From positions 1,099-65,098 of the forward strand of contig DAOPZW010000001.1 of the NCBI GenBank assembly GCA_035353595.1: a stretch of DNA of 64,000 nucleotides, written 5' to 3'. Below are positions 1,781-58,296 of this stretch, piece by piece; within the stretch, counting starts at the first letter, position 1, and each line of letters opens with the position of its first letter. The notes under the pieces were generated by a model. It was not told the DNA's origin, did no database searches, and was given only the letters and a program-made list of their open reading frames with translations. Source of the stretch: Elusimicrobiales bacterium. GTDB taxonomy: Bacteria; Elusimicrobiota; Elusimicrobia; Elusimicrobiales; UBA9959. The translations under genes were made by a program, and so were the position numbers.

Positions 1781-3127
1781 TTAAATCTTGTCCCCGCTCT
1801 TTTTGAGCGTGGCGTAGAGCAGCCTGGTGGAGATCTTAAGGGCCGCCAGCGTTTTTGTGCGGCTGCCCTCGTTCTCGTCCAGGTTCCTTTTGATTATTTC
1901 CGCTGAAACTTTATCCAGCGCGGCTTCCAGGCCGTGGGCCAGCGCATAGGCGTAAAGGTCCTCGCCGGCGGGCCCCGCCGCGGGGCTGCCGGCGGGACCC
2001 GCCGCGCGGCCTTTCAAGTGCTTCTGCGCGGTCTCCAGGCTTACCCTGCCGCCGGGGCCGCCGGCCACCAGGTCCGTGAACTTCTTCAGTTCGCGGATAT
2101 TGCCGGGCCATGCATAGCTTCCCATGAATTCCCTGGCCTCGGGCGTGAAAGCCAGGCGCCGGCCGGTTTTGGTGAAGTGCAGCACCAGCGGGAAAATATC
2201 GCAGCGGCGGCGCGCCAGCGGCTTGAGCGTTATTGTATAGCCGTGCACGCGGTGGAACAGGTCGAAGCGCAGCTTGCCCTGCGCTATCAGCGCCTGCGGG
2301 TCTTCCAGCGTGGCGCTGATGATGCGGAACTCCGAGCGCTCCGGCTTTTCCGAGCCCAGCGGGTAGAAGGAGCGCTCCTCCAGCGCCTTGAGCAGCTTGG
2401 TCTGCATGTTCAGGCTCATGGCGCCTATCTCGTCGAGGAATAGCGTGCCTTTGTGCGCTTCCAGCAGGCGGCCTTTGCGCGCTTCGGAGGCGCCGGTGAA
2501 AGCGCCTTTCTTGTAGCCGAACAGTTCCGCTTCCAGCAGGTCTTCGGAATAGGCCGAGCAGTTGATGGCCACGAAAGCGCCGTCCCGCCCGGAATGCTCG
2601 TGCAGGATCTTGGCCAGAGAGGTTTTGCCGGTGCCGGAGGGGCCCAGGATCACGATGGGCAGCTCGGTGGGCGCGTATTTGAGCGCCTCGGCGGCCGCGG
2701 CCTTCGTTTCCGGGTCCTGGGTGATGAAAGCGTCCGCGAAGATGTCGGCGGCGCCGGCGGCTTTGCGGTGCTGCAGGAATTTCTGCAGGATGTCCGCCAC
2801 GTTGCGCTCTTCGTTGCCCTTGGCGTAGAAGTCGCCCGCGCCCGCCTCGTAGGCCTTGTCTATCATCTCGTCGGAATCGGAGCTGGACACCACCACGGCG
2901 TAGAGCCCTTTGTCCACGGCCCGCGGGATCGCCTTGAGGCCGGAGTAATCGTCGCCGGGGCCCAGCATCAGGTCGAAGAAGCCCAGGTCGTAGCGCCCGG
3001 TCTCCAGTTTTTTCAGGGCGGTCTTAAGGTCGCCCGCCAGGTCCACGTTGTGCGCGGCCAGCTGCGCGGCCATAACTTTCTGGGCCAGCTTGTCGTCTTC
3101 CACCACCAGGATATTCAGCTTTTCCAT
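1781..3127 (-). CDS. Sigma-54-dependent response regulator (REC + AAA+ + Fis-type HTH), here 'EBP1'
   Basis: REC domain ('LNILVVEDD', 'FFDLML'), Walker A 'GPSGTGKT', sigma-54 contact loop 'GAFTGA', 'WPGNIRELK', C-terminal HTH. The likely start is MEKLNILVVEDD at 3127, not the ORF-track start at 3157. Confidence 0.92.
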   Translation of the reverse strand: MEKLNILVVEDDKLAQKVMAAQLAAHNVDLAGDLKTALKKLETGRYDLGFFDLMLGPGDDYSGLKAIPRAVDKGLYAVVVSSSDSDEMIDKAYEAGAGDFYAKGNEERNVADILQKFLQHRKAAGAADIFADAFITQDPETKAAAAEALKYAPTELPIVILGPSGTGKTSLAKILHEHSGRDGAFVAINCSAYSEDLLEAELFGYKKGAFTGASEARKGRLLEAHKGTLFLDEIGAMSLNMQTKLLKALEERSFYPLGSEKPERSEFRIISATLEDPQALIAQGKLRFDLFHRVHGYTITLKPLARRRCDIFPLVLHFTKTGRRLAFTPEAREFMGSYAWPGNIRELKKFTDLVAGGPGGRVSLETAQKHLKGRAAGPAGSPAAGPAGEDLYAYALAHGLEAALDKVSAEIIKRNLDENEGSRTKTLAALKISTRLLYATLKKSGDKI

Positions 3128-3146: not shown

Positions 3147-3168
3147 AATATTTTCAAATGAAAATGTT
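3147..3168. promoter_or_regulatory. Palindromic upstream activator site AATATTTTCA-AA-TGAAAATGTT
   Basis: 22-bp near-perfect inverted repeat in the divergent EBP1/RpoN-like intergenic region, about 90 bp upstream of the -24/-12 promoter at 3251. The same core recurs at 4428 and at 57680/57700. Confidence 0.6.
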
Positions 3169-3250
3169 AACCCTTGGAACTATTATACAGAAGTTGCGGG
3201 TATAGTGTATCTCCTATAGAAAAACGGTGGCGCGGGTGCCGCCTGTTTTT

Positions 3251-3266
3251 TGGCATAAAAATTGCT
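3251..3266 (+). promoter_or_regulatory. Sigma-54 (-24/-12) promoter TGGCAT-AAAAA-TTGCT
   Basis: Matches the TGGCAC-N5-TTGCW consensus with correct GG/GC spacing. Nearly identical to the sites at 4525, 57799 and 10397 (minus strand). Confidence 0.75.
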
Positions 3267-3310
3267 CTGCTGCGGGTACAATGACTATAATATGCCTTGA
3301 GAGAAAAACT

Positions 3311-4390
3311 ATGACAAGATCTTACCGCACAGGGCTGCACCACGTGACCGGGGCAAAAACTTCCGCCTCCGTAATGGGCGCCGTTAAAATGGGCCAGCTG
3401 GCCGCCATGAGCGAGGAGGAATTCGAGAAAAGCCTGCTCGAGATGGAGAGCGGCCGCACTTTCCAGCTGCTCAAGGCCTCCGGCGCCGTGAACCTGGCCG
3501 AATTCCCGTCGGCGCGCTACGCCGCGCGCAAATACGCGGGCTACGGTCTTAAACTTTCCGGCGGGGACCTGCCCGAACTGGCCGACGGCAAAGGCGACCT
3601 GGTGGCCCTGATCCAGGGAATCGGCCAGGAGAAGTTCGAAGCCTGCTTCCTTAAAGACGCCGCGATGAGCGACGTGGAGCGGGCCGAAGAGTGCGATATC
3701 AGCGTGGCCGACGCGCAGCGCCTGCGCGATTTTGTGAACCGGGCTTTCATCCAGGCCGAGTTCGAAGGCGCGGCCGAGGCGCCGGCGGCCAAAGTTTTCA
3801 GCGCGGTGGCCGGCATTGAACTTAATGACGGCGAGCCGCAGCTGGGCTTCTTCCACCGCGAGGTGTGGAAAGGCCGCTACAAGGTGGACGCCGAAAAGCT
3901 GGCGGCCCTGCTGCCGGGGCTGCCGCAGGCCGAGCAGAACCGCGTGGAGAAGCTGCTGCGCAAGCTGGAATTCGCCGACAAGCGCAAGACCACGCTGTAC
4001 CGCGCGCTGGAGATCCTGATCAGCGTCCAGGCCGAGTACCTGGCCACCGGCGAGGCCGGCCGCCGCCGTCCGCTGTCGCAGCGGACCATGGCTAAAAACC
4101 TGGATGTGGACGCCAGCGTGTTCAACCGCCTGATCTCCAATAAATCGATACAGATGCCCTGGGGCATGGAAGCGCCCATGAGCGCGCTGCTGCCCAGCCC
4201 CAAGAAAGTGAACATAGACCGGCTTTATGAGATCGCGTCCGAAAAACCCGAGCTCAGCGACGAGGCCCTGCGCACCGAACTGAAGACGCGCCACGGCATA
4301 GCCCTTTCGCGGCGCTCGGTGGCGCAATACCGCAAGGATCTCGGCCTGCAGTCCGGCGGCCGGCGCGCGCCCGAAGCGGCGCAAGAGTGA
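3311..4390 (+). CDS. Short, divergent sigma-54 (RpoN)-like factor
   Basis: Collinear with the RpoN C-terminal two-thirds: 'KRKTTLYRALEILISVQAEYL', HTH 'PLSQRTMAKNLDVDASVFNRLISNKSIQMPWG', RpoN box 'IALSRRSVAQYRKDLGL'. About 360 aa, against roughly 480 for typical RpoN. Start is uncertain (ATG 3281 or 3311). The ORF-track start at 3227 lies upstream of the predicted promoter. Confidence 0.75.
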   Translation: MTRSYRTGLHHVTGAKTSASVMGAVKMGQLAAMSEEEFEKSLLEMESGRTFQLLKASGAVNLAEFPSARYAARKYAGYGLKLSGGDLPELADGKGDLVALIQGIGQEKFEACFLKDAAMSDVERAEECDISVADAQRLRDFVNRAFIQAEFEGAAEAPAAKVFSAVAGIELNDGEPQLGFFHREVWKGRYKVDAEKLAALLPGLPQAEQNRVEKLLRKLEFADKRKTTLYRALEILISVQAEYLATGEAGRRRPLSQRTMAKNLDVDASVFNRLISNKSIQMPWGMEAPMSALLPSPKKVNIDRLYEIASEKPELSDEALRTELKTRHGIALSRRSVAQYRKDLGLQSGGRRAPEAAQE

Positions 4391-4409
4391 CCGGCCTTGA
4401 GCCGCCATA

Positions 4410-4441
4410 TTTTCATGCGAGAATATATTTTCAAATGAAAA
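4410..4441. promoter_or_regulatory. Upstream activator sites (TTTTCA-TG-CGAGAA degenerate copy plus TTTTCA-AA-TGAAAA)
   Basis: Full palindrome at 4428..4441, degenerate copy at 4410..4423, and an extra TGAAAA half-site at 4494..4499. All lie upstream of the -24/-12 promoter at 4525. Confidence 0.55.
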
Positions 4442-4524
4442 CATTTGCGTTCAAACCTGTTGCGGTCTTGCCTCTCCCAAACAGTTCCTCAAATGAAAAC
4501 CGGGCGGCTCCTGGTGATCCCCGG

Positions 4525-4540
4525 TGGCATAATTATTGCT
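4525..4540 (+). promoter_or_regulatory. Sigma-54 (-24/-12) promoter TGGCAT-AATTA-TTGCT
   Basis: Consensus GG/GC spacing. Followed by TCT, as at the other sites. Confidence 0.75.
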
Positions 4541-4647: not shown

Positions 4648-4740
4648 ATGGAATACCTGTTCGACATAGGATACTCATTTATTATCGCGGTCCTGGCCGT
4701 TGTCTATATTTCTTCCGTCCTGGTTGAGGGCGGCGTTTGA
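4648..4740 (+). CDS. Possible 30-aa hydrophobic micro-ORF in the leader of the DUF4097 operon
   Basis: Hand translation MEYLFDIGYSFIIAVLAVVYISSVLVEGGV. Lies between the sigma-54 promoter and the 4776 start. The RBS is weak (AAGAGAG directly abutting the ATG). Confidence 0.25.
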   Translation: MEYLFDIGYSFIIAVLAVVYISSVLVEGGV

Positions 4741-4775
4741 GCAGCTGGTTGATAAATCTTCAGAGGGAGAATAAA

Positions 4776-5597
4776 ATGAAAATACTGGCATCACTGGCGG
4801 TCATCTGCTTAGTTCCGGCAACAGCCGTTTATTGCGCGGCTCCGGAAATAAAAACTTTTCCCGCGGCGGGGATACAAAGTCTGCGCGTTGAAACCGGGGC
4901 CGGGGACATCCTTGTGGAGGGCGCGCCGGGGGACATACGGGTGGAGGTTACCGGCGAGGAGCCCGGCAAATGCCTGCTGACGATGAAGGCCGAAGCCGGT
5001 ATCTTTCTCGTCCGGGCCGAGGACGATCCCGCGGCCGCGACAAAACGCGGGTTCTGGCGCTCCCTTTTCGGCGGTTTTCACGGCGAGAATGGCTGCCAGG
5101 CGGGCTTTAAGGTTTCGGCGCCGGCGGCCCTGCCGCTCAGCGCGGCCAACGGCTCGGGCGAAATTTATATCAGCGGCCGCGACGGCGACGTGAGCGCCGG
5201 CAACGGCAGCGGCCATATCAAGGCGGAAAAAATCACGGGCAACCTGGACGTCAAGAACGGCTCGGGCGGCCTCTCCGGCGCCGGCTGCCCGAAAAGCCTG
5301 CGCGCGCGCACCGGTTCCGGCGGCATAACTTTCACCGGCCTTTGCGGGCCGGTCAACGCCGCCGCCGGCAGCGGCAATATCGAACTGAAATGGACGGGCG
5401 TTCCCCCCGCGGGCGAAGTGAGCGCGCGCACCGGTTCCGGGGATATCACCATGGTGTTCCCGCCTTCCGCCGCCATAGCCGCCAAGCTCGATAACGGTTC
5501 GGGCTCGATACGCAACGATTTCGTAAACGGCGGCAAATTTCCGGTGTCGGCCGGGGCCGGTTCCGGAAATATTTCCCTGCTCAAGGCCGTGAAGTAA
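4776..5597 (+). CDS. DUF4097-like beta-strand-repeat protein with signal peptide
   Basis: Starts MKILASLAVICLVPATAVYCA (signal-like). Reiterated 'GSG.I' strand repeats (NGSGEIYI, NGSGHIKA, TGSGGITF, AGSGNIEL, TGSGDITM, NGSGSIRN, AGSGNISL), typical of DUF4097 putative adhesins. Confidence 0.55.
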   Translation: MKILASLAVICLVPATAVYCAAPEIKTFPAAGIQSLRVETGAGDILVEGAPGDIRVEVTGEEPGKCLLTMKAEAGIFLVRAEDDPAAATKRGFWRSLFGGFHGENGCQAGFKVSAPAALPLSAANGSGEIYISGRDGDVSAGNGSGHIKAEKITGNLDVKNGSGGLSGAGCPKSLRARTGSGGITFTGLCGPVNAAAGSGNIELKWTGVPPAGEVSARTGSGDITMVFPPSAAIAAKLDNGSGSIRNDFVNGGKFPVSAGAGSGNISLLKAVK

Positions 5598-5634
5598 TTA
5601 AAAAACACAATTCAGCGGTTATTAAGGAGAAAAA

Positions 5635-6039
5635 ATGAAAATAAATATGAAACTGTTCGCGGGCGCGGCGCTGCTGGCCGCAGTGTGCGGGTTCGCGGCC
5701 TGCTCCAGGGGCGTGAGCAGTGTAAAGATCGTGTCCATCTCCCCGGATACTACCGTTAACCTGGCGGTGGGCGCCACGGTAGAACTGGAAGTGGCGGTGG
5801 CCTACGAGCTGAAGGAAAAAGAAGGCGCCATCTCGCTGGTGGTGCAGAAACAGGACAATTCTCCGATAGCCGACCTGCGTGAAAAGATCCTGAGCGGCAA
5901 GGGGACGTATACCTTCAAACAGAAATTCGTCGTGCCCGACACACACGCTGTTTCCGTTTCCGTGCCGCTGTTCGCCGATAACGCGGTAAAGACCGAGATA
6001 GTCGACCACCGGCTCTACGGCGTGGCAAAGAAGAAATAA
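5635..6039 (+). CDS. Lipoprotein, unknown function
   Basis: 134 aa. Lipobox 'GFAAC' after a hydrophobic signal. GGAG RBS upstream. Confidence 0.6.
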   Translation: MKINMKLFAGAALLAAVCGFAACSRGVSSVKIVSISPDTTVNLAVGATVELEVAVAYELKEKEGAISLVVQKQDNSPIADLREKILSGKGTYTFKQKFVVPDTHAVSVSVPLFADNAVKTEIVDHRLYGVAKKK

Positions 6040-9696: not shown

Positions 9697-10347
9697 TTAT
9701 TTCCGAACAGGAGGATTAATCGGCAGGGGATGAAGCGCGGCACCGCCGCCACCGCCGCTGCCACCACCACCACTATTGCTCGGTGGTGTCGGAGTAGGTT
9801 CGTATTCCGAACAGACTTTGACTACTTGATCTATAAAATGGTCTACAACCCAGGTGGCGACCGTTGTGAGAATCCATGTAACACATTTACCTTTGGTAGC
9901 ACCATTAGCAGAAAGATTATAACGAATCGTGTTCAGTAGTATTTCATTGTCAATAGTGTTTAAGGTTTCCCCATCCTTCATTATTAGTATTTGGTTAGGC
10001 AATTTTAAAGTAATGATTACCCCTTCAATCTTTAGGTTTTTTTCAATGCTATCATCATGCAATCTTTGTGTATTGTATGAAGCTACAATATCTTTTATTA
10101 ACTGCTGTTTGCTTCTCATGGGGCTTTCTTTTGTGCCTGGCTCTACTTTGTTTGTTTCAAGGAAGGCGGATACGGTGGGAATTGGCAATGCCACCGTCTC
10201 GAAATCAGATAAAGCTTTCTTGAAGCCATCTAAAGATGATGTCAGATTGCCTCCCCTGTCAAAGTCAATTTGCATTTCCTCGGCCCTGGCCATCGAGGCC
10301 GCCGTCATCACCGCGAAGATCGCTATCAGTATGCTGGTCTTTTTCAT
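9697..10347 (-). CDS. Secreted protein with Gly-rich C-terminal tail, unknown function
   Basis: 216 aa. Signal peptide MKKTSILIAIFAVMTAASMARA. C-terminus 'PTPTPPSNSGGGGSGGGGG'. AGGAG RBS. Sits directly downstream of a sigma-54 promoter. Confidence 0.6.
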   Translation of the reverse strand: MKKTSILIAIFAVMTAASMARAEEMQIDFDRGGNLTSSLDGFKKALSDFETVALPIPTVSAFLETNKVEPGTKESPMRSKQQLIKDIVASYNTQRLHDDSIEKNLKIEGVIITLKLPNQILIMKDGETLNTIDNEILLNTIRYNLSANGATKGKCVTWILTTVATWVVDHFIDQVVKVCSEYEPTPTPPSNSGGGGSGGGGGAALHPLPINPPVRK

Positions 10348-10396
10348 AATTCTCTTATCTCCTAACCTTTAGATTTTGTGCCGTCACCTTTGTATA

Positions 10397-10412
10397 GGCA
10401 ATATTTATGCCA
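10397..10412 (-). promoter_or_regulatory. Sigma-54 (-24/-12) promoter TGGCAT-AAATA-TTGCC (minus strand)
   Basis: The reverse complement of GGCAATATTTATGCCA matches the consensus spacing. Lies ~50 nt upstream of the ATG at 10347. Confidence 0.7.
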
Positions 10413-10525
10413 AACCCCTGATTCGCTGTGCCTGGGCGGGTGTAATATCATGGTTATCGTCGGAGGAGTTCTTGTTATGGCGCGGCTTCATAGGGAGCTT
10501 TCAAAACACGGGGGCAGGGAATTCA

Positions 10526-10561
10526 GTCCCGTACCGGAACGATATCGTTCCGGTATGGGAC
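10526..10561. promoter_or_regulatory. 36-bp palindrome GTCCCGTACCGGAACGAT|ATCGTTCCGGTATGGGAC
   Basis: 18-bp arms with 1 mismatch. Lies ~115-150 bp upstream of the minus-strand sigma-54 promoter and ~50 bp upstream of the EBP2 start. Candidate activator or operator site. Confidence 0.5.
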
Positions 10562-10609
10562 TATTCCGCCGGATTTTGGTATCATTCTGGATACCGAACA
10601 AGGGGACTT

Positions 10610-11953
10610 ATGCAAAAACTGAAGATACTGGTTATTGAGGATGACAGCCTGGCGCGCGAGGTGATGGCCGAGAACTTGGCCGGCCATGCGGTGGACTTTG
10701 CCGCGGATAAGGCCGCGGCCGAGCGCAGGCTGAAGGCCGGGGATTACGATATCTGTTTTGTGGATCTGCTTCTGGGCGTGGACGATGACTATTCCGGGCT
10801 GAAGTTGATTCCATTGGCGGCGGCTAAGAAAATATACACGGTGGTGATGTCGGGTTGCGATACCGAGGACACCATAAGCCGCGCCTATGCGCTGGGTTGC
10901 AGCGAGTTCTACGTCAAAGGCAATGAGGTGGCCAATATCCCGGCCATCATAGTCCGGTATCTGCAGGGTGACGGGGGGAAGAAAGCGCAGGAAATCTTCG
11001 CCGGGGATTTTATTACCCACGACCCAGAGACACGCGGGCTGGTGACGGAGGCGCTTAAATATGCCGCCACGAGCCTGCCGTTGATGATATTGGGGCCCTC
11101 GGGGACGGGCAAGACTACGCTAGCACAGTTATTGCACGACCATTCCGGCCGGGAAGGGGATTTTGTGGCGATGAACTGTTCGGCCTATACAGAGGATCTG
11201 CTGGAGGCCGAGCTGTTCGGCTATAAGCGCGGAGCGTTCACCGGCGCGCACGAAAACCGCAAAGGGAAACTGGCCCAGGCGGACAAGGGCACGCTGTTCC
11301 TGGACGAGATAGGCGCCATGAGCCAGAATATGCAGGTAAAGCTGCTCAAAGCCATAGAAGAGAAGCGTTTTTCTCCGCTGGGTTCGGACAAGCCCGAGTA
11401 TTCCGACTTCCGTGTGATGAGCGCGACGCTGGAGGACGTGCAGAAGCTGCTTGCCGAGAAACAACTGCGGTTCGATTTCTTCCAGCGCGTGCACGGCATG
11501 ACGATAACGCTTAAACCTCTGGCGCAGAGGAAATGCGACATTTTCCCTCTGATGCAGGCTTTGACCAGAAAGGGGAAGCGGCTGGCCTTCGAGCCCGAGG
11601 CCAGGGAGTACGTGCTGGCGCATAACTGGCCAGGCAATACGCGGGAGCTAAAACGCTTTGTGGAGCTAGTAAGCGCCGGCACGCATGGACAGGTAACGCT
11701 GGAGACCGCGCGCCGGCATATTACGCCCGCCGCGCCGGCTACGGCGGCCACCGGGGCGGCGGCGGGGGAATACTATGATTATGCGCTTAAACACGGCTTG
11801 GCGGCCGCGGTGGACCGCCTTACGGGGGAACTGGTAAACCGCAGCCTGGACGAGAACGGCGGCAAGAGGGCAGCAGTCCTGGCGCAGCTTAAGATCTCAA
11901 AGCGTCTTTTGTATGGTACGCTGTCGAAAACGCGCGGACCGGAGGGAAAATAA
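10610..11953 (+). CDS. Sigma-54-dependent response regulator, paralogue of 1781..3127 ('EBP2')
   Basis: Starts MQKLKILVIEDD (AAGGGGA RBS). 'GPSGTGKT', 'GAFTGA', 'WPGNTRELK', C-terminal HTH. Long identical runs with EBP1, for example DLLEAELFGYK, GTLFLDEIGAMS, ITLKPLA, CDIFPL. Confidence 0.92.
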   Translation: MQKLKILVIEDDSLAREVMAENLAGHAVDFAADKAAAERRLKAGDYDICFVDLLLGVDDDYSGLKLIPLAAAKKIYTVVMSGCDTEDTISRAYALGCSEFYVKGNEVANIPAIIVRYLQGDGGKKAQEIFAGDFITHDPETRGLVTEALKYAATSLPLMILGPSGTGKTTLAQLLHDHSGREGDFVAMNCSAYTEDLLEAELFGYKRGAFTGAHENRKGKLAQADKGTLFLDEIGAMSQNMQVKLLKAIEEKRFSPLGSDKPEYSDFRVMSATLEDVQKLLAEKQLRFDFFQRVHGMTITLKPLAQRKCDIFPLMQALTRKGKRLAFEPEAREYVLAHNWPGNTRELKRFVELVSAGTHGQVTLETARRHITPAAPATAATGAAAGEYYDYALKHGLAAAVDRLTGELVNRSLDENGGKRAAVLAQLKISKRLLYGTLSKTRGPEGK

Positions 11954-11954
11954 C

Positions 11955-12137
11955 ATGGCCGACATCGAGAAGATCTATCACAATATAAAGTCCAAGGCGG
12001 TAAACCTTAAAGCGGCGGCTGAGCAACTGGATAAATATCCGCAGGATAAGCGCGATAAATTTATACCGCTCATGCGTGAGGCGGCGCAGGACATTATAAG
12101 ACTGTTGGGTGAGCTGGAGGCGCAGCCCCGGAAGTAA
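11955..12137 (+). CDS. 60-aa helical His-containing protein (mini HPt-like), paralogue of 1592..1771
   Basis: MADIEKIYHNIKSKAVNLKAAAEQLDKYPQDKRDKFIPLMREAAQDIIRLLGELEAQPRK. ATG is 2 nt after the EBP2 stop, with GGAGGG upstream. Shares H-x-[LI]-[RK]-S-K-x3-L-K-x-AAE and the ...LM+-AA--I---L-ELEA pattern with the 1592..1771 product. Confidence 0.7.
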   Translation: MADIEKIYHNIKSKAVNLKAAAEQLDKYPQDKRDKFIPLMREAAQDIIRLLGELEAQPRK

Positions 12138-12156
12138 TTCCTGTTCGGCCCGGCGA

Positions 12157-14289
12157 TTAACTTTCTGACTTCACGCCCCAGGGGGCTTCTTTGGTAACCA
12201 CCCGCAGCCAGGGAAGGTGGGCGAATCTTTGCGGCGGGTGGCCGGTGGCCAGGGAAATATTGGTGTAACCTTTCTCTTTGAGCTCGACGGCTATGTTTTC
12301 ACCTTTTATGTTGTCGCCGAGCTCGGAATCTATATAAAGTGGAATATCTTTGGGGAAGTCGCCCAGGCTTGCCAAGAACTCGGCCGGGTTGGTAAACGCC
12401 TTGAGTTCGATGCCGTTTTCCTGGGCGGCCCATTCCCAGTTCATATGCGTGATGGCGTCGTCGTCCAGCAGGACCGCCCGCGTAGGCGGGGCGGCGGCTA
12501 CCGAAACAGGCACAAAACCGGACAAGCTTTTGGGGATCATCCGCACTTTAAGCCGGGCGCATTCCTCAATTATCCGTTTTTCTTCGCAGCGGCTGGTGAC
12601 CAGTATTGTCTGGCCGCAAAGGCCGAGCTCTTCGGCCAGGCCTAAGCCGGTTTCTTTATAGCCCGCAAGCTCATAGTCGAAAAGACAGACGGCGCTTTCG
12701 GCTTTTGCTGAATTGTCTTTAATCCAGGAGCGTAATTTATCAGGCTCGCAGAAATGGAGAATTTCAATATCATATTCTTTGACGCGGGCGGATTCGAACC
12801 AGCCGCGCCAGATCTGGTGGATGCCGGGGTCGTCATCAAGTACTACTACCGGGCGGCCGGGGGGAAGTGCTAGCGCTGACACGAAACCGGCCGGGGCCGC
12901 AGCCTTGGGCAGTTTTATGGTGACTGTGGTACCTTTGCCGGGCGTTGAAGCGATTGCCAGGCTGCCGCCCCAGCTTTCCGCGGTGGACCTGGCGTGGAAC
13001 AGGCCGAGGCCCGAGCCGCCGGCTTTGCCGTGGGTTTCGCCCTTTTGCCCGAGCTTTGTCAGGATCTCGGGCGGTATGCCTTTGCCTGTGTCCGATACCG
13101 TCAGAACAACTTTTTCATCTTCATGTGTTAACTTCACGTCCACCGCACCTTTATCCCCCAAGGCCTCGACGGCATTATTGACCAGGTTGGAGATCATGCG
13201 CCGGAATTCGATCGGCTGGAGCCTGGCGAACAGGCCGTAGGATTCCCGTGTTAATTCAAAATCAATATTGATGCCGGGCTTTGATCCGAATTGCAGGCGC
13301 TTTTCCGTGACGACCGGATCTATGAGGCTTGAGAGCAGGCGAACTTCCGGAGGCTCGCCGGCGACATGGCCGCCGGCGGCTCTGCCGGCTACAGCGCTTG
13401 GCTGCTGCCGGTTCTTTTCGAGAAGGTTGTTGGCTATGTCGCGTATACGATTGACCGCGTGGCGCACCATAATGCGCTGCTTCTCTGGGAGTTGTTCTGT
13501 GTTCTTGAGCGCGGCGTCCAGAGCTACCAGAGGGGAGCGGATATCGTGGGCGACCTGGGCGGCCATATTGGAAACGGCCTTGCTTACGGCAAGCTCGCTT
13601 TCAAGGCGCGCGGCCAGCCCCAGCGCGTCGCTCATGCGGTTGGTCATCTGGGCGAAAGGCACGCCTATAATATCCGCCGGGAGAGTTTCTATATGGCACT
13701 TTATCGAATCGCGGATAATGTCGCTCCGGCCGGACCCGGCTATGGCGTTTATCTCGTTGATGGAGCGCTCGATGGCCAGCAGCGTCCGCATAGCGCCCAG
13801 GTTGGAAATTATCAGCAGCCCCAGGAAGAAGAATACCACGGTGATGAACAGAATGTAATTCTGCCCGAACGCCACGGCGTTAACGTCCACAAGGTCTATG
13901 ACATATTCAAGCCGGCCAAGCTCCGCGCCGTTAGAGATGAATGGGACATTGTGTGTTATCTGGGCGCGAGACCTGTCGTAAAGGTTGCCGACTATGGCCT
14001 CTTTAAAGATCCACCGGCTGCCCTCGAACCCTACCGGGTGGAAAGTGATGCGCTTGATGTTGTCGTTCTTGATGCGCCACATGATGCGTTGCGTCTCGAA
14101 GACGTCACCATCAAGAAAAGCCTTCTCGAAGTAAGCTGCGTTCTGACGCATGGCGGTCAGCAGCTTGTCGTTCGCCACACGCACTGCGGAGAAGGCCGAG
14201 AACGCCTGCCAGAAAGCGACAAAGACCAGCACCGACACTACGTAGTGCCGCCAATTGTAGGCAAGAATGCGGGCAAAAAGTCTTACCAT
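12157..14289 (-). CDS. Hybrid sensor histidine kinase (2 TM, HisKA, HATPase_c, two C-terminal receiver domains)
   Basis: H-box 'AHDIRSPLVAL'. N/G boxes 'NLVNNAVEA', 'DTGKGIPPE', 'GGSGLGLFHA'. REC1 'VVVLDDDPG...CLFDYEL...ILVTS...MIPK'. REC2 'AVLLDDDA...LYIDSEL...SLATG...VVTK'. Confidence 0.88.
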   Translation of the reverse strand: MVRLFARILAYNWRHYVVSVLVFVAFWQAFSAFSAVRVANDKLLTAMRQNAAYFEKAFLDGDVFETQRIMWRIKNDNIKRITFHPVGFEGSRWIFKEAIVGNLYDRSRAQITHNVPFISNGAELGRLEYVIDLVDVNAVAFGQNYILFITVVFFFLGLLIISNLGAMRTLLAIERSINEINAIAGSGRSDIIRDSIKCHIETLPADIIGVPFAQMTNRMSDALGLAARLESELAVSKAVSNMAAQVAHDIRSPLVALDAALKNTEQLPEKQRIMVRHAVNRIRDIANNLLEKNRQQPSAVAGRAAGGHVAGEPPEVRLLSSLIDPVVTEKRLQFGSKPGINIDFELTRESYGLFARLQPIEFRRMISNLVNNAVEALGDKGAVDVKLTHEDEKVVLTVSDTGKGIPPEILTKLGQKGETHGKAGGSGLGLFHARSTAESWGGSLAIASTPGKGTTVTIKLPKAAAPAGFVSALALPPGRPVVVLDDDPGIHQIWRGWFESARVKEYDIEILHFCEPDKLRSWIKDNSAKAESAVCLFDYELAGYKETGLGLAEELGLCGQTILVTSRCEEKRIIEECARLKVRMIPKSLSGFVPVSVAAAPPTRAVLLDDDAITHMNWEWAAQENGIELKAFTNPAEFLASLGDFPKDIPLYIDSELGDNIKGENIAVELKEKGYTNISLATGHPPQRFAHLPWLRVVTKEAPWGVKSES

Positions 14290-17165: not shown

Positions 17166-18053
17166 CTATGTTGAGAGTGCGGCCAGAGTTTTCCGACCCT
17201 TAGCTCTTAAACTGAAAAGATACTTGCACATGGCGCAAGGCGCTGAATGCTGTGGGGAGAACTTGGGGGAGGGAATCTTAAAATACTCTATCAATTCCTG
17301 GAAAGTTTTTTTGCGCATGATAGAATAGAACTCGCTGCCGAGATGTCCTGCCAACGTCGGATGCACATATCCTCTCCCATCCCCGTCCAATGCAAGATGG
17401 GAACAACATGTGGTAAAACCTTCGCCGGGAAGATAAATCAGTTTATTGTTGTTTGGGCATTTTTTCTGCAGGACGTCCGCGTCAAAGCTCGGGTAAATGT
17501 GCTGTAGTTTGTTCTTTTGCGCCGCACCTATAGGGTGTATCGGCTGAACACCGACCGGGAAGTCCCCCATCTTTTTAAGATCTTTGATAAGCAGAAGGTC
17601 CATTGGGGTCTGGACCGTCATCAAGACATTAAAGCTTCTGCCGCTCCGCCTGCATGCAGAATAAAGATTTGACAGGTTCGCCTCTTTCTGGAACGCTTTA
17701 TGGAAGCGGTCGTATGATAACTGGACGCCGGAAAGCGCCCTAAACTCGTTTAGGACCGTTAAGGCGGCCGCTTCGGTCCTGGCGAAGTGCCCGTTAGTGG
17801 TTATCTTTATTTGCGGGAAGGGCGCGTATTTGATTCCGGAGAGAATCGTGTTTATCTTGTCTATGTACAATGTCGGTTCACCGCCGACAAAAAGCAGCGA
17901 CTGGAACTGATATGTATTTATTGCTCTGATTAGAAGATGGATCTCTTCTTCGGTAAGACTTACCTGGCGCTTTTCGCTGACCCCGCAATGCGCACAGTTG
18001 AAATTACATCTATATCCTACAAGTATACTGCAGCTGGTCGGCCTATTTCGCAT
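17166..18053 (-). CDS. Radical SAM enzyme (short, with C-terminal Cys cluster)
   Basis: 'YRCNFNCAHC' is the CxxxCxxC motif. 'GGEPTL' SAM-binding motif. C-terminal Cys residues ('TTCCSH', 'CAMC') suggest an auxiliary cluster. Confidence 0.8.
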   Translation of the reverse strand: MRNRPTSCSILVGYRCNFNCAHCGVSEKRQVSLTEEEIHLLIRAINTYQFQSLLFVGGEPTLYIDKINTILSGIKYAPFPQIKITTNGHFARTEAAALTVLNEFRALSGVQLSYDRFHKAFQKEANLSNLYSACRRSGRSFNVLMTVQTPMDLLLIKDLKKMGDFPVGVQPIHPIGAAQKNKLQHIYPSFDADVLQKKCPNNNKLIYLPGEGFTTCCSHLALDGDGRGYVHPTLAGHLGSEFYSIMRKKTFQELIEYFKIPSPKFSPQHSAPCAMCKYLFSLRAKGRKTLAALST

Positions 18054-18390: not shown

Positions 18391-18677
18391 AGAAAAAAGG
18401 AAAAGCAAATTTTGATTTTGCTTTCCCTGGATGCGCCGGATTAAGGTCCGACCGTGGATACCCGGGGGCCAATTCCCCCGATTACAAGGAAACTACGATT
18501 AGAGTTTAGCTGACTTAGGTTGCGCCCGGAAGTGCCGTTGGGCCTGGTGGGTTCTAGGCCCTGCCTTCCCCGCAGTTGAATGACGCCATTACTGGTTCTG
18601 CTTCTTTGCAGTTTTCCGCAAGGCCGAGGTTGTTGGCGCGGGCCTTACCGCCGCAGGCGGTACAATGGTGACCGTAA

Positions 18678-22886: not shown

Positions 22887-24116
22887 TTATTGCGGGCCGG
22901 GTTTGCTTTTCAATTTCAGCACCGCCCGCCGCAACCAGCCGGTCTGCCCGGTGCTGGTGCTGACTTTTGCGCGTTCACCTTTCAGGCCGAGCACGGTCAC
23001 TACGGAATCTTTGAACATGAAGCCGAGGCTGTCCGTGCTTTCGGGGTCTTTGTACAATATGGCGCGGTTCGTTACTATTATAGCGCTGCTGCCGGTTTCA
23101 AAATAGTTGGCCGACTGCGGGCTGGCATATGCCGCGTCGCTGGCCTTTTTTTCCGCTATCTTATGCTTTTCGAATTTCATGACCAGCGTCAGCAGGTGGG
23201 AATTGCCCAGGTCCCCGAACGGGACATAGGCGTAATCAAAGCCGGCATCTTTATAACCTATACCGAACCCGGCGCTGAAGCCGGCGTATTTCCCGGCTTT
23301 TCCCGCGCCGGTGCGGCCGTTGTAGCCGGCGCGGAGAGCGGCGCTCAGCGCGTCAAAGAAACTCTTCCGGTATTCCAGGCCGGCACAGCCGTACGCCGGC
23401 GCGCCTCTGGCCATAATCCCGTCGAAAGCCAGCAGGAACCCCGTGCCCAGCCGGTAGCTGCTGCCCAGCCTGAACGTACTGGGCAGCCGCGCGACCTCGG
23501 ACCTGTACTTCAGCCCGGGGCCCAGATTAGAAAATGAAGCCGCCAGCGTCAGCGAGCGGCCGGTCCAGCGCACGCCGCCGTCGCCCGCATAGGACAGCGC
23601 CTCGTGATAAAGCCGCGAATAGAGCAGTTTCGCCCCGAGCCCGTATTCGAAGTCTTTATACCTGCGCGCATTGTACGCCGAGACCGCCAGGTCCATGGGT
23701 GACAGGGAATCGCCGGTCAGGTTACCGGCATTATCCACCTTCGCTATGCCTCCCGGGGACAGATACTGCGCCCCGAACCCCAGAACGCCGTGTTTGAGCG
23801 TCTCTACCGCCAGGCTGACGTGATCATAAGAGACCGACTGGAAATAGACCGCGTGCGTCAGGGAGAGATTGACCCCTTCCAATCCGGCGATCTGCGCGGG
23901 ATTATAATGGATGGCCGAGGCGTCGGTGGAGGCGGCTGCCTGCGCGTCGCCCAGCGCTACCGCCCTGGCGCCGGCCGGGAGCTCCAGGAATTGCGCGCCG
24001 GTGGTGCCTAAGGCGCCGGCTGAATAATCTCCGGCCCGGGCGGCAGGCAGCCCTGCCGTGCAGATGCCGAGCGCGAGCAGGATCGCCGGGAACTTTTGCC
24101 GCTGATCAGTGTTCAT
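22887..24116 (-). CDS. PorV/PorQ-like outer-membrane beta-barrel protein with C-terminal SH3b-like domain
   Basis: Signal peptide. N-terminal signature 'FLELPAGARAVALGDAQAAASTDASAIHYNPAQIAGL'. Alternating beta-strand pattern. C-terminus 'AILYKDPESTDSLGFMFKDSVVTVLGLKGERAKVSTSTGQTGWL' is SH3-like. Start overlaps the upstream stop (ATGA). Confidence 0.65.
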   Translation of the reverse strand: MNTDQRQKFPAILLALGICTAGLPAARAGDYSAGALGTTGAQFLELPAGARAVALGDAQAAASTDASAIHYNPAQIAGLEGVNLSLTHAVYFQSVSYDHVSLAVETLKHGVLGFGAQYLSPGGIAKVDNAGNLTGDSLSPMDLAVSAYNARRYKDFEYGLGAKLLYSRLYHEALSYAGDGGVRWTGRSLTLAASFSNLGPGLKYRSEVARLPSTFRLGSSYRLGTGFLLAFDGIMARGAPAYGCAGLEYRKSFFDALSAALRAGYNGRTGAGKAGKYAGFSAGFGIGYKDAGFDYAYVPFGDLGNSHLLTLVMKFEKHKIAEKKASDAAYASPQSANYFETGSSAIIVTNRAILYKDPESTDSLGFMFKDSVVTVLGLKGERAKVSTSTGQTGWLRRAVLKLKSKPGPQ

Positions 24117-34513: not shown

Positions 34514-34777
34514 GTGAATAAGCGGTTCACGGAAGAACAGGTAGCGTTCGCGCTGAAGCAGCATGAGACCGGGGTCCCCATAGCTGACATATGCCGTAAA
34601 ATGTGCGTCAGCGACGCCTCATTTTATCTTTGAAAGAAGAAATACGCGGGGATGGGCATAACCGAGCTGCGCAAATTGAAGGCCTTGGAGGAGGAAAACC
34701 GGCAGCTTAAGAAGCTGGTGGCGGATCTCAGCCTGGACAAGCAGATGCTGCAGGATGTGCTCTCAAAAAAATTCTGA
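34514..34777 (+). pseudogene. IS3 orfA (HTH transposase N-terminal part) with an in-frame TGA
   Basis: VNKRFTEEQVAFALKQHETGVPIADICRKMCVSDASFYL*KKKYAGMGITELRKLKALEEENRQLKKLVADLSLDKQMLQDVLSKKF. The TGA at 34631 sits where IS3 OrfA proteins have the conserved Trp (TGG). Confidence 0.7.
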
Positions 34778-35633
34778 AGCTGCGCGTAAGCGCACCGCCG
34801 CCCGATCCCTCCAGGATACCTACAGGGTCAAAATAAGGCGGGCGTGCAGGCTTGTGAAGGCCGAGCGCTCCGGATATTACTATAAGCCGCATGGCAGGGA
34901 CAATAGGGCCCTGCGCTTGCGGATACTGGACATAGCCAATGCCGGGCCCGGATTCGGATATCTGCGGATACACATCCTTCTTCGACGGGAGGGCTGGCTG
35001 GTAGATAAAAAGTGCGTTTACAGGATCTACACGGAAGAAATGCTTCAGGTCCGCACGAAGCAGCGAAGAAAACGCATAAGCCAGCCCCGGGTTAGATTGC
35101 CATTGCCGGGGGCAGTAAACGAGCACCGGAGCATGGATTTTATACATGATCCCCTGGAAGACGGCCGAAAGTTCCGGATCCTGACCGTGGTAGACCAGTT
35201 TAGCCGGGAATGCCCGATACTGGCGGCGGAGCATTCGTTAAGCTGGGAAAAAGTCGTAGAATATCTTGAAGGGTTGCGACGCAGGCGCGGTCTGCCCAAG
35301 GCGATAACCGTGGACAACGGGACGGAGTTCATTTCAAAAGCTCTTGATGCCTGGGCGTATCGCAACGGCATACACCTGGATTACATAAGGCCCGGGAAAC
35401 CGGTTGAAAACGCCTGTATCGAGAGTTTTAACGGCCGGCTTCGCGACGAGTGTTCGAACGCGAACGTGTTCGCGGCATTAGAGTCGGCTTCGAGTTTGCT
35501 TGAGGCATGGCGGCAGGATTACAATAATTTTAGACCGCACACTTCTGCCGACGGCATGCCGCCGGCCGAGTATGCGGCGAAGTGCAGGGAAGGCCTAAAA
35601 ACAGCTGCGGTTTTCCAACGCTCTGTGGTCTAG
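34755..35633 (+). CDS. IS3 orfB (DDE transposase catalytic part)
   Basis: 'RRACRLV', 'GYLRIHILLRREGW', 'DFIHD...RILTVVDQFSRE', 'ITVDNGTEF', 'RPGKPVENACIESFNGRLRDE'. Lies in the +1 frame relative to orfA, not the canonical -1 frame. Confidence 0.85.
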   Translation: MCSQKNSEAARKRTAARSLQDTYRVKIRRACRLVKAERSGYYYKPHGRDNRALRLRILDIANAGPGFGYLRIHILLRREGWLVDKKCVYRIYTEEMLQVRTKQRRKRISQPRVRLPLPGAVNEHRSMDFIHDPLEDGRKFRILTVVDQFSRECPILAAEHSLSWEKVVEYLEGLRRRRGLPKAITVDNGTEFISKALDAWAYRNGIHLDYIRPGKPVENACIESFNGRLRDECSNANVFAALESASSLLEAWRQDYNNFRPHTSADGMPPAEYAAKCREGLKTAAVFQRSVV

Positions 35634-57679: not shown

Positions 57680-57713
57680 TTTTCAAGTGAAAATAAGGAT
57701 TTTCATATGAAAA
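57680..57713. promoter_or_regulatory. Two tandem upstream activator sites TTTTCA-AG-TGAAAA and TTTTCA-TA-TGAAAA
   Basis: Sites at 57680..57693 and 57700..57713, centres 20 bp apart, ~90-120 bp upstream of the -24/-12 promoter at 57799. Confidence 0.6.
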
Positions 57714-57798
57714 TAATTTATCCTCATTAATACAGGGGCCCTGCCAGGCGGGGGGCTACCTCCTATGAAAATGCCGGGTTTCGGCTTACCGGGGGCGC

Positions 57799-57814
57799 TG
57801 GCATATAAATTGCT
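57799..57814 (+). promoter_or_regulatory. Sigma-54 (-24/-12) promoter TGGCAT-ATAAA-TTGCT
   Basis: Consensus spacing. Followed by an ~85-nt leader and an AAGGAG RBS before the ATG at 57911. Confidence 0.75.
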
Positions 57815-57910
57815 CTGTGAAGGTTGCCGGGGTCACCGGATCCCGGTAAGGCAAAGCGTGGTACGGGGCAATATTCGTTCTGCGCTGCACAGCAGTAAGG
57901 AGAAAAATAC

Positions 57911-58213
57911 ATGGAAGCTAATGAAAAAGGGGTTTCGCGGCGCGACGCGCTCAGGCGGATGGCGAAAGTTACGATGGGCATCGGCATGGGCCTGCAGCTC
58001 GTAGGATCTTTTGTGCCGTCGGGGCACGCGGCGGTGACCGCGGCGCAGGGCGCCAGATTCAGTACAATAGGGCAGGTGTCCTCTCCCGCCATAGGCGTGG
58101 CGACGGCCGGCGCTGTGAACAGCGTCACCAGGGAGGGCTGCTATACGAACGGCGCCGGTTACAGCAATAACGGCTACCAGCCGTACAGCAAATACGTTAA
58201 CTGCAATCCGTAA
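57911..58213 (+). CDS. 100-aa precursor-like protein with twin-arginine signal peptide
   Basis: 'VSRRDALRRMAKV' is a Tat motif. Followed by the h-region 'TMGIGMGLQLVGSFV' and 'GHA|AV'. C-terminus 'REGCYTNGAGYSNNGYQPYSKYVNCNP' is Tyr/Asn/Gly-rich with two Cys 20 residues apart. AAGGAG RBS. Confidence 0.7.
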   Translation: MEANEKGVSRRDALRRMAKVTMGIGMGLQLVGSFVPSGHAAVTAAQGARFSTIGQVSSPAIGVATAGAVNSVTREGCYTNGAGYSNNGYQPYSKYVNCNP

Positions 58214-58223
58214 GCTGAACCTC

Positions 58224-58266: not shown

Positions 58267-58296
58267 CGGGGGAGACAAGACGAAGAAAAACACAAT

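What the first reader, a model, noticed from the sequence alone, without database searches (positions are those of the whole stretch)
3251..4390. Short divergent RpoN paralogue transcribed from a sigma-54 promoter (possible positive feedback loop)
The ~360-aa product keeps the sigma-54 DNA-binding elements: an ELH/HTH-like segment and an RpoN box, 'ALSRRSVAQYRKDLGL'. It lacks the Gln/Leu-rich region I sequence, and the acidic and core-binding part is much shorter than in canonical ~480-aa RpoN.

Its own promoter is a -24/-12 element with an upstream activator site. Expression would therefore need a sigma-54 (itself or a second, canonical RpoN) plus an activator. Sigma-54-dependent rpoN paralogues are known in a few organisms, for example Rhizobium etli rpoN2. 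A truncated version next to its likely activator is unusual.
Basis: partly seen in the sequence, partly recalled or inferred. Interest (0 to 1): 0.65.

Follow-up and report, generated by a model that had tools for sequence, protein, structure and literature searches.

The report
Miniature sigma-54 factor of Elusimicrobia
This gene encodes a conserved, unusually small version of the alternative RNA-polymerase factor sigma-54 found across the phylum Elusimicrobiota, and its own promoter combines a sigma-54-type and an ordinary-type promoter, so it probably amplifies its own production when its neighbouring activator is switched on.

Summary
CDS 3311-4390 (+) encodes a 359-aa protein with a bona fide sigma-54 DNA-binding half (ELH-HTH and RpoN box, SRRSVAQYR). 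No Pfam AID or CBD hit appears.

It is not a truncation. It belongs to a large family of ~340-395-aa proteins; every named member is from Elusimicrobiota.

Profile comparisons show a degenerate, Gln-poor region I, no region II, and a core-binding domain cut to about half.

The gene is almost always linked to an NtrC-type activator (EBP) with a canonical GAFTGA loop.

The TGGCAT-N5-TTGCT element at 3251-3266 and the upstream site TTTTCAAATGAAAA at 3151-3164 are conserved in orthologues.

New finding: an exact TATAAT sits 16-19 nt after TTG[CT]TC in 30/36 promoters of this gene, against 0/48 other sigma-54-type promoters. This indicates an overlapping sigma-70-type promoter, so expression need not depend on sigma-54.

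"Paralogue of a canonical RpoN" is unproven. No canonical rpoN was seen in the window or in 1.2 Mb of related loci, but whole genomes could not be searched.

Best reading: this is the working compact sigma-54 of these bacteria, with basal plus activator-boosted self-amplifying expression. It is a new variant of a known kind.

The parts
1781..3127 (-). EBP1: response-regulator receiver + sigma-54-interaction AAA+ domain, with a C-terminal segment that looks like a Fis-type HTH by eye only (no Pfam HTH hit among the 25 families listed). Transcribed divergently from the sigma-54-like gene.
   Evidence: Pfam Response_reg, Sigma54_activat (2.1e-56) and AAA_lid_14. GAFTGA loop present. The likely ATG at 3127 (MEKLNILVVEDD) was read from the sequence; the ORF list starts at TTG 3157. 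A divergent EBP orthologue is present in nearly all close homologue loci.
3151..3164 (.). Upstream activator site TTTTCAAATGAAAA (palindrome TTTTCA-N2-TGAAAA). It lies ~100 bp upstream of the -24/-12 element and ~25 bp upstream of the EBP1 ATG.
   Evidence: 4 sites in the window against 0.10 expected, each upstream of a -24/-12 promoter. The same motif lies ~80-105 bp upstream of the promoter in orthologous loci.
3251..3266 (+). Sigma-54-type -24/-12 promoter element TGGCATAAAAATTGCT.
   Evidence: Exact consensus match. TGG at -24 in 38/45 close homologue loci. The strict motif occurs 69 times in 1.2 Mb of related loci against ~1 in shuffles.
3262..3291 (+). Overlapping sigma-70-type promoter: -35-like TTGCTC (3262-3267), an 18-nt spacer, then -10 TATAAT (3286-3291).
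   Evidence: Exact TATAAT at spacer 16-19 in 30/36 promoters of this gene across loci, against 0/48 other sigma-54-type promoters. It stays with the promoter where a small ORF is inserted before the gene. The tool's consensus scan does not list it because TTGCTC matches only 3/6 of TTGACA.
3311..4390 (+). CDS of the 359-aa miniature sigma-54 (stop included).
   Evidence: ORF. Start supported by the family alignment. More than 120 homologues of ~350 aa.
3350..3481 (+). aa 14-57: helical, degenerate region I (Gln-poor).
   Evidence: AF2 helices 14-32, 35-47 and 49-57. hhalign to canonical region I in register: P 4e-4; distant members P 0.0019, 0/150 column shuffles; window-clade-inclusive alignment 1/200 shuffles. 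No Pfam AID hit.
3482..3661 (+). aa 58-117: family-specific conserved segment, partly disordered in the model. It takes the place of region II and the first part of the CBD. Its end, 'GIGQEKFEACFL', aligns with canonical 'GVGARxLRECLL'.
   Evidence: Invariant residues. pLDDT below 50 at 69-91. hhalign alignment.
3662..3925 (+). aa 118-205: retained C-terminal part of the core-binding domain, an HTH-like unit plus a three-stranded sheet.
   Evidence: hhalign independent of the DBD: probability 74-81%, E 1.2e-5 against the second half of the canonical CBD. Collinear BLASTP of distant member P0186 with canonical sigma-54s. Full-length hhalign covers residues 103-359, probability 99.9.
3926..4189 (+). 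aa 206-293: extra-long helix and helix-turn-helix (-12 recognition).
   Evidence: Pfam Sigma54_DBD. PDB profile hits to sigma-54 chains. AF2 helix 206-239 and HTH 257-276.
4199..4348 (+). aa 297-346: RpoN domain with the RpoN box (LSRRSVAQYRK; -24 recognition).
   Evidence: Positions S333, R334, S336, Q339 and Y340 are invariant in the family; R335 and R341 are >=90% conserved.
4428..4540 (+). Second EBP1-type upstream site (4428-4441) and second -24/-12 promoter, TGGCATAATTATTGCT (4525-4540).
4648..6039 (+). Putative target operon: a 30-aa membrane peptide, a DUF4097 'toastrack' protein (about 4776-5597) and a small lipoprotein-like ORF (5635-6039).
   Evidence: Sequence, ORFs and Pfam DUF4097. 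The regulatory link is inferred from the promoter position.
57680..58213 (+). Third module: two upstream sites (57680, 57700), the promoter TGGCATATAAATTGCT (57799-57814), and a 100-aa ORF with a twin-arginine-like leader (57911-58213), followed by a radical-SAM gene.
9697..11953 (.). Second activator module: EBP2 (10610-11953, +). It is divergent from a sigma-54-type promoter, TGGCATAAATATTGCC (10412..10397, -), that faces a 216-aa secreted-looking protein (9697-10347, -).

Best explanation
The gene encodes the working sigma-54 of this Elusimicrobiota bacterium in a miniaturised form. The layout is a degenerate region I, no region II, a core-binding domain reduced to roughly its C-terminal half, and then a normal ELH-HTH and RpoN domain.

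Inferred mechanism:
1. The protein binds core RNA polymerase.
2. It reads TGGCAT-N5-TTGCT promoters: the RpoN box at -24 and the HTH at -12.
3. It forms closed complexes that need an NtrC-type AAA+ activator, acting through its GAFTGA loop on region I, to open.

Its own gene has two superimposed promoters:
- A sigma-70-type promoter (TTGCTC-N18-TATAAT) gives basal supply. This solves the bootstrap problem.
- A sigma-54-type promoter has a TTTTCA-N2-TGAAAA activator site ~100 bp upstream. Through it, phosphorylated EBP1 raises sigma-54 levels together with its other targets (the toastrack/envelope operon at 4525 and the peptide/radical-SAM cluster at 57799). This is a positive feedback or amplifier loop.

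Because the -12 element doubles as the -35 hexamer, the sigma-54 closed complex should compete with the housekeeping holoenzyme when EBP1 is inactive.

Shown here: domain homology, family conservation, gene linkage, and motif conservation and enrichment. Inferred: core binding, activator dependence, the direction of autoregulation, and that this is the main or only sigma-54 type in the genome.
For: Sigma-54 identity:
- DBD: Pfam 57.5 bits for the 387-aa ORF and 57.8 bits for the 359-aa protein.
- PDB profile hit to Aquifex sigmaN, E 1.7e-11.
- All 28 top Foldseek PDB hits for the AF2 model (pLDDT 70.6) are sigma-54 chains.
- hhalign to 42 canonical sigma-54s covers residues 103-359, probability 99.9, E 1e-35.
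- CBD C-terminal half alone: probability 74-81%, E 1.2e-5.
- Region I in register: P 4e-4 to 2e-3, 0/150 shuffles. The distant member P0186 has a near-canonical region I.

Family:
- More than 120 close homologues of ~350 aa.
- 286 clusters at 50% identity share the N-terminal half, and nearly all full-length entries among the 150 listed are 340-395 aa.
- Every named member is Elusimicrobiota.
- A sharp gap separates the family from canonical sigma-54.

Working sigma-54 system:
- EBPs are linked in most loci, in three conserved arrangements.
- 63/64 EBPs carry GAFTGA.
- 69 strict -24/-12 motifs in 1.2 Mb against ~1 expected.
- The window has two EBPs and four sigma-54-type promoters spread over 54 kb.

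Own promoter:
- The -24/-12 element and the upstream site are conserved.
- TATAAT is specific to this gene's promoter: 30/36 against 0/48.
Against: - Pfam AID and CBD models and the NCBIfam rpoN equivalog fail (59 bits against a 277 cut-off).
- The N-terminal 208 aa modelled alone is low-confidence (pLDDT 56) and finds no significant PDB match.
- From memory, not checked here: the missing N-terminal CBD part corresponds to the strongest core-binding determinant mapped in E. coli sigma-54. Core binding is therefore not guaranteed.
- Whole genomes could not be searched, so a canonical rpoN elsewhere is not excluded.
- About ten orthologues have TTGT instead of TTGC at -12, so sigma-54 use of the gene's own promoter may vary.
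- TTGCTC is a poor -35 (3/6) and fails the tool's sigma-70 scan.
- There are no expression data.
Confidence: 0.6

Rival explanations
1. This is a specialised extra sigma-54 paralogue working alongside an undetected canonical full-length RpoN. The canonical factor (with EBP1) fires the 3251 promoter, as in rhizobial prxS-rpoN2.
For: A sigma-54-type promoter and upstream site lie in front of the gene. Precedent exists in R. etli and M. loti rpoN2 (PMC3538637). Several Elusimicrobia genomes hold 2-3 diverged copies of the short family, so sigma-54 multiplicity does occur in the phylum.
Against: - No canonical rpoN in the 64-kb window or in 1.2 Mb around 79 related loci.
- None of the few named canonical hits closest to the family is from Elusimicrobiota (one search added only one further name, Bryobacterales).
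- The family spans the phylum with deep divergence and a gradient towards canonical region I. That looks like vertical descent of the phylum's own rpoN.
- The first cultured Elusimicrobium is reported to lack sigma-54 and EBPs altogether (PMC3162934).
- The conserved sigma-70-type -10 removes the need for another sigma-54.
Confidence: 0.2
2. The protein is not a sigma factor. It is a DNA-binding regulator that kept only the sigma-54 promoter-reading half. It would occupy -24/-12 elements as a repressor, decoy or anti-activator without productive binding to RNA polymerase.
For: AID and CBD are undetectable with curated models. The CBD is about half size. The N-terminal model is weak.
Against: - Region I and the C-terminal CBD module are detectably homologous and strongly conserved.
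- GAFTGA EBPs and consensus -24/-12 promoters are abundant and gene-linked. That makes no sense without a sigma-54 partner.
- No other candidate sigma-54 was seen.
Confidence: 0.1
3. The -24/-12 element at the gene's own promoter acts mainly negatively. The sigma-54 holoenzyme's closed complex sits on the -35 of the sigma-70-type promoter and throttles its own synthesis. That is homeostatic negative autoregulation, with little or no EBP1-driven activation.
For: The -12 TTGC overlaps the -35-like TTGCTC of the conserved TATAAT promoter. Negative autoregulation of rpoN is reported for R. leguminosarum (PMC3538637). Some orthologues weaken the -12 to TTGT.
Against: A conserved EBP1-type palindrome lies ~100 bp upstream at the classic enhancer distance. 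The same arrangement is seen at the two other EBP1-type promoters, which have no TATAAT. The two modes are not mutually exclusive.
Confidence: 0.25

Closest known systems
Canonical sigma-54 (RpoN), e.g. E. coli/K. pneumoniae (477 aa) and the compact Aquifex aeolicus sigmaN (PDB 5UI5)
   Same: ELH-HTH and RpoN domain with the RpoN box. -24/-12 promoter type. Partnership with GAFTGA AAA+ activators. An N-terminal helical region I followed by a CBD module and the DBD in the same order (domain definitions from PMC7057263).
   Different: About 120 aa shorter than E. coli RpoN. Region I has almost no Gln (2 against 13). There is no region II. The CBD lacks its N-terminal part and one further helix. 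It falls below the Pfam AID and CBD thresholds and the NCBIfam rpoN threshold.
Rhizobial prxS-rpoN2 (Rhizobium etli, Mesorhizobium loti)
   Same: [quoted passage not shown] An additional weak sigma-54-independent promoter provides basal expression, giving a feed-forward or positive loop (PMC3538637).
   Different: rpoN2 is a full-length paralogue beside a chromosomal rpoN1 and is co-transcribed with prxS. Here the protein is a miniature form, no canonical copy is known, the activator gene is adjacent and divergent, and the two promoters physically overlap.
Multiple RpoN paralogues with cognate activators in Rhodobacter sphaeroides
   Same: Several sigma-54 copies per genome, each working with particular EBPs and promoter variants (as summarised in PMC3538637). 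Some Elusimicrobia genomes hold 2-3 diverged short copies, most of them EBP-linked.
   Different: The Rhodobacter copies are full-length. Cognate pairing in Elusimicrobia is only suggested by gene linkage. The window also has a second EBP without its own sigma gene.
Truncated RpoN-like proteins of Neisseria
   Same: A naturally shortened RpoN homologue (PMC12316311).
   Different: [quoted passage not shown] Here the DNA-binding half is intact and the protein is under strong conservation.

Membership tests
Sigma-54 (RpoN) family | C-terminal DNA-binding domain (Pfam PF04552: ELH-HTH plus RpoN domain) | tested here: met
   57.5 bits for the 387-aa ORF and 57.8 bits for the 359-aa protein, against a 22.8 cut-off. 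All 27 members hit. hhalign probability 99.6-99.9. PDB sigma-54 hits.
Sigma-54 (RpoN) family | RpoN box (ARRTVAKYR-type) for -24 recognition | tested here: met
   SRRSVAQYR at aa 333-341. S333, R334, S336, Q339 and Y340 are invariant in the family; R335 and R341 are >=90% conserved.
Sigma-54 (RpoN) family | Core-binding domain (Pfam PF04963) | tested here: inconclusive
   No Pfam hit in 37 members tested. Profile-profile comparison finds only the C-terminal half, aa ~103-205 (probability 74-81% alone, 99.9% in the full alignment). The N-terminal half is missing or unrecognisable.
Sigma-54 (RpoN) family | Region I / activator-interacting domain (Pfam PF00309), Leu/Gln-rich | tested here: inconclusive
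   No Pfam hit and only 2 Gln. In-register hhalign similarity: P 4e-4 to 2e-3, 0/150 and 1/200 shuffles. Distant members look near-canonical.
Sigma-54 (RpoN) family | Full-length equivalog score (NCBIfam TIGR02395 rpoN_sigma) | tested here: not met
   59.2 bits against a 277.35 cut-off. Only model positions 281-433 match.
Sigma-54 (RpoN) family | Genomic partners: -24/-12 promoters and AAA+ activators with a GAFTGA loop | tested here: met
   3-4 promoters and 2 EBPs in the window. 69 strict motifs against ~1 expected, and 63/64 EBPs with GAFTGA in related loci.
Sigma-54 (RpoN) family | Binds core RNA polymerase; forms closed complexes opened only by ATP-hydrolysing activators | not testable with these tools
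   Needs biochemistry or complex modelling.
Sigma-54-dependent rpoN paralogue (rhizobial rpoN2 type) | A second, canonical rpoN in the same genome | not testable with these tools
   None in the 64-kb window or in 1.2 Mb of related loci.
Sigma-54-dependent rpoN paralogue (rhizobial rpoN2 type) | RpoN-type promoter plus an activator site upstream of the rpoN gene | tested here: met

The most novel reading that the evidence does not exclude
Free-living Elusimicrobiota have replaced canonical RpoN with a miniature sigma-54. It lacks region II and the N-terminal core-binding subdomain, so it must hold and inhibit RNA polymerase in a different, minimal way. The gene has also diversified into several sigma-54/activator cassettes per genome, forming cognate pairs analogous to ECF sigma modules. 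Each cassette would be wired with an overlapping sigma-70/sigma-54 dual promoter that makes sigma-54 supply itself signal-dependent.
Probability: 0.35. Interest if true: 0.75.

Novelty: new variant of a known kind. Interest (0 to 1): 0.6.

Why it matters
Sigma-54 is the only bacterial sigma factor that locks polymerase until an ATPase opens it. Its region I, region II and CBD are all assigned roles in that lock (PMC7057263).

A naturally occurring, phylum-wide version about 120 aa shorter than E. coli RpoN would define the minimal parts list for enhancer-dependent transcription. It has almost no Gln in region I, no region II and half a CBD, yet still sits among canonical GAFTGA activators and textbook -24/-12 promoters. 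It could also serve as a compact orthogonal part for synthetic biology.

Surveys that require all three Pfam domains, or high thresholds, will miss it (e.g. PMC12316311; Elusimicrobium was scored as lacking sigma-54 in PMC3162934). The distribution of sigma-54 across phyla may therefore be under-counted.

The overlapping sigma-70/sigma-54 promoter is specific to the sigma gene (30/36 against 0/48). It is a clean, testable design for making sigma-factor supply inducible without a bootstrap problem.

Tried and rejected
1. A longer upstream start restoring a canonical N-terminus. Rejected: an in-frame stop lies before 3227, and the family alignment fixes the start at 3311.
2. Pfam and NCBIfam detection of AID or CBD, even at E<=10 and in distant members. 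Negative.
3. hhalign against a small, 7-sequence canonical alignment. It saw only the DBD. A 42-sequence canonical alignment was needed to reach the CBD.
4. A separate AF2 model of the N-terminal 208 aa. Poor (pLDDT 56), and Foldseek gave nothing significant.
6. A search for canonical rpoN, or the lptB-rpoN-hpf neighbourhood, in the window and 79 loci. None found, but the sample is too small to be decisive.
7. Taxon names for distant family members and for the nearest canonical hits. Only a few names were returned: the family names were all Elusimicrobiota, and no canonical hit was.
8. Literature searches for Elusimicrobia sigma-54 or short sigma-54 proteins. No description found.
9. The 425-aa antisense ORF 3167..4444 (-). 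Treated as a GC-rich shadow ORF, because all homology is in the + frame.
10. The tool's sigma-70 consensus scan does not list TTGCTC-N18-TATAAT, since the -35 is only 3/6. The claim rests on comparative conservation instead.
Full report
**Observation.** ORF 3227..4390 (+) is real. A 27-sequence family alignment places the start at the ATG at 3311, giving 359 aa. An in-frame stop just before 3227 excludes any longer N-terminus.

Pfam finds only Sigma54_DBD: 57.5 bits for the 387-aa ORF and 57.8 bits, residues 210-352, for the 359-aa protein. NCBIfam's rpoN equivalog scores 59 bits against a 277 cut-off and matches only its C-terminal third. The quoted RpoN box is at aa 331-346.

The upstream gene 1781-3127 (-) is a receiver + AAA+ sigma-54 activator (EBP1) with a GAFTGA loop.

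TGGCATAAAAATTGCT lies at 3251-3266. The window has three exact TGGCAY-N5-TTGCW sites against 0.11 expected. It has four TTTTCA-N2-TGAAAA palindromes against 0.10 expected, each ~85-120 bp upstream of one of those promoters.

**Not a truncation but a family.**
- A database search returned more than 120 homologues at 53-100% identity. Nearly all are ~350 aa, all carry only PF04552, and all named ones come from Elusimicrobia MAGs.
- A scan of one genome per GTDB species gave 79 loci. All are Elusimicrobia or unlabelled MAGs.
- An HMM of the N-terminal 208 aa alone found 286 clusters (50% identity) in 1.84 billion proteins, and nearly all full-length entries among the 150 listed are 340-395 aa.
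- Ten distant members again show only Sigma54_DBD.
- The few with names are Elusimicrobiota.
- A search with the distant member P0186 shows a sharp gap between the family (E<=2e-73) and canonical three-domain sigma-54s (E>=4e-13).

**What the N-terminal half is.** Several tests gave nothing:
- Curated models fail, even at E<=10.
- A small canonical alignment aligned only the DBD.
- The separately modelled N-terminus is low-confidence and matches nothing.

Three lines then recover homology.

(i) Distant members have a recognisable region I. An example is P0186, 'PRLQQSQQLKGTQTHKLIHRLKLARIMELPENEFSALVNQIENDPLY'. Ninety-nine distant N-termini align in register to canonical region I with P 0.0019 and 0/150 column shuffles. 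The full family gives P 4e-4 for aa 27-53.

(ii) BLASTP of P0186 against canonical sigma-54s is collinear from family residue ~93 to the C-terminus.

(iii) hhalign of 42 family members against 42 canonical sigma-54s aligns residues 103-359 with canonical ~224-517 (probability 99.9, E 1e-35). With the DBD removed, aa 118-203 still match the second half of the CBD (probability 74-81%, E 1.2e-5).

Thus 'GIGQEKFEACFL' corresponds to 'GVGARxLRECLL'. The HTH-like unit 'SDVERAEECDISVADAQRLRDFV' corresponds to the unit ending in LDPRPG. The three strands at 165-192 correspond to the 'PDVxV..G.W.V.LN..P.LRIN' hairpin.

Missing relative to E. coli are region II, the N-terminal part of the CBD (roughly residues 57-188) and one further helix. 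In their place is a conserved, partly disordered ~60-aa segment.

The full AF2 model (pLDDT 70.6) has sigma-54 chains as all 28 top Foldseek PDB hits. Domain roles are as reviewed in PMC7057263.

**A working sigma-54 system surrounds it.** tblastn shows an EBP gene next to the sigma gene in most loci, in three arrangements:
- divergent, in the window's clade;
- immediately upstream on the same strand, in a deep clade;
- downstream, in others.

Other evidence:
- 63/64 EBPs in these loci have a canonical GAFTGA.
- Strict -24/-12 motifs occur 69 times in 1.2 Mb against ~1 in shuffles.
- The window has a second EBP (10610-11953) divergent from a fourth sigma-54-type promoter (10412..10397, -). The promoters are spread over 54 kb, so the factor serves more than one activator.

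Targets look like cell-envelope or secreted proteins: a DUF4097 'toastrack' protein, lipoprotein-like ORFs, and a twin-arginine-like peptide next to a radical-SAM gene. This fits the 'bacterial exterior' theme of PMC3162934.

**The gene's own promoter.**
- In close homologue loci, TGG at -24 is present in 38/45. The EBP1-type palindrome lies ~80-105 bp upstream.
- An exact TATAAT lies 16-19 nt after the TTG[CT]TC of the -12 element in 30/36 promoters of this gene, but in 0/48 other sigma-54-type promoters in the same DNA.
- In lineages where a small ORF has been inserted before the sigma gene, the TATAAT stays with the promoter.
- A sister clade without an adjacent EBP keeps AAAATTGCTC-N17-TATAAT but loses the GG.

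I read this as an overlapping sigma-70-type promoter: -35-like TTGCTC at 3262-3267 and -10 at 3286-3291. It gives basal, sigma-54-independent expression. EBP1 plus the sigma-54 holoenzyme adds inducible expression, which is positive feedback.

Because the two promoters share the TTGC, closed-complex occlusion (negative autoregulation, as reported for R. leguminosarum rpoN; PMC3538637) is a live, non-exclusive alternative.

The tool's consensus scan does not list this promoter, because TTGCTC matches only 3/6. The evidence is comparative only.

**Paralogue or sole sigma-54?** No canonical rpoN is present in the window or in the 79 loci.

Several genomes hold 2-3 diverged short copies at 47-68% identity. 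Paralogy within the short family is therefore real.

The first cultured Elusimicrobium was reported to lack sigma-54 and EBPs (PMC3162934). A 2025 survey requiring all three Pfam domains does not list the phylum (PMC12316311).

I put ~0.2 on an additional canonical RpoN in this genome.

**Comparison and novelty.** Functionally this is sigma-54. Architecturally it fails the curated AID, CBD and equivalog tests, and it is shorter than any sigma-54 I could compare it with here.

The regulatory layout resembles rhizobial prxS-rpoN2: an RpoN promoter, a NifA site and a weak independent promoter (PMC3538637). Here the miniature protein, the adjacent divergent activator gene and the physically overlapping promoters all differ from that case.

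No description of this family was found, though the search covers open-access text only.

**Verdict:** a new variant of a known kind. Interest 0.6.

Noticed in passing
window 18422-18492 (-): Rfam match to the 2dG-II purine-type riboswitch aptamer (82 bits, gathering score 60). It lies upstream of the radical-SAM ORF 17166-18053 (-).
   Followed up: no
window 9697-14289: A second two-component/sigma-54 module. It comprises EBP2 (10610-11953, +, 59% identical to EBP1), a divergent sigma-54-type promoter TGGCATAAATATTGCC (10412..10397, -) in front of a 216-aa secreted-looking protein, and a histidine kinase at 12157-14289 (-).
   Followed up: partly
window 57680-59298: The third EBP1-type promoter drives a 100-aa ORF with a twin-arginine-like leader and two Cys. 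A radical-SAM gene (58225-59298) follows directly. This may be a sigma-54-controlled modified-peptide cluster.
   Followed up: no
L031, L034, L035, L036, L041, L042, L044 (about 160-180 nt upstream of the sigma gene start): In these lineages a short Gly/Phe-rich ORF (e.g. ...FFGRFFSFGGYTGYYGGRCV*) sits between the dual promoter and the sigma-54-like gene.
   Followed up: no
L026, L028 (two copies), L029, L030, L032, L033, L038: A sister clade of the short sigma-54 has no adjacent EBP. Several copies lie next to a tRNA gene. Most have lost the GG of the -24 element but keep AAAATTGCTC-N17-TATAAT. These are possibly constitutively expressed copies.
   Followed up: partly
L002, L003, L004, L005, L009, L015, L016, L017, L018, L052 (promoter of the sigma gene): The -12 element reads TTGT or ATGT instead of TTGC in about ten orthologues, while TGGCA and (mostly) TATAAT are kept. 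Sigma-54 use of the gene's own promoter may differ between lineages.
   Followed up: no
window 3226-3243 (+): A terminator-like GC hairpin followed by a T-run (GGTGGCGCGGGTGCCGCC TGTTTTTT) lies immediately upstream of, and runs into, the -24 element. From the orthologue sequences listed, it does not appear to be conserved.
   Followed up: no
window 34755-35633 (+): IS3-family transposase (rve/rve_3 integrase core) next to prolyl-tRNA synthetase.
   Followed up: no
window 24113-30769 (-): A very large ORF of 2218 aa, followed by a PorV/UPF0164-like outer-membrane protein (22887-24116). Not analysed.
   Followed up: no
L049, L064, L066, L071, L073-L075, L079 (upstream of the EBP-sigma operon): In the deep 'EBP upstream, same strand' clade, a sigma-54-like element lies on the opposite strand (e.g. 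CGGCATAAAAATTGCTC, CTGGCATGAAAATTGATC). It faces the divergent neighbour gene. EBP-type palindromes (TTTTCAAATGAA, ATTCTCAAATGAGAAT) sit at the EBP start.
   Followed up: partly
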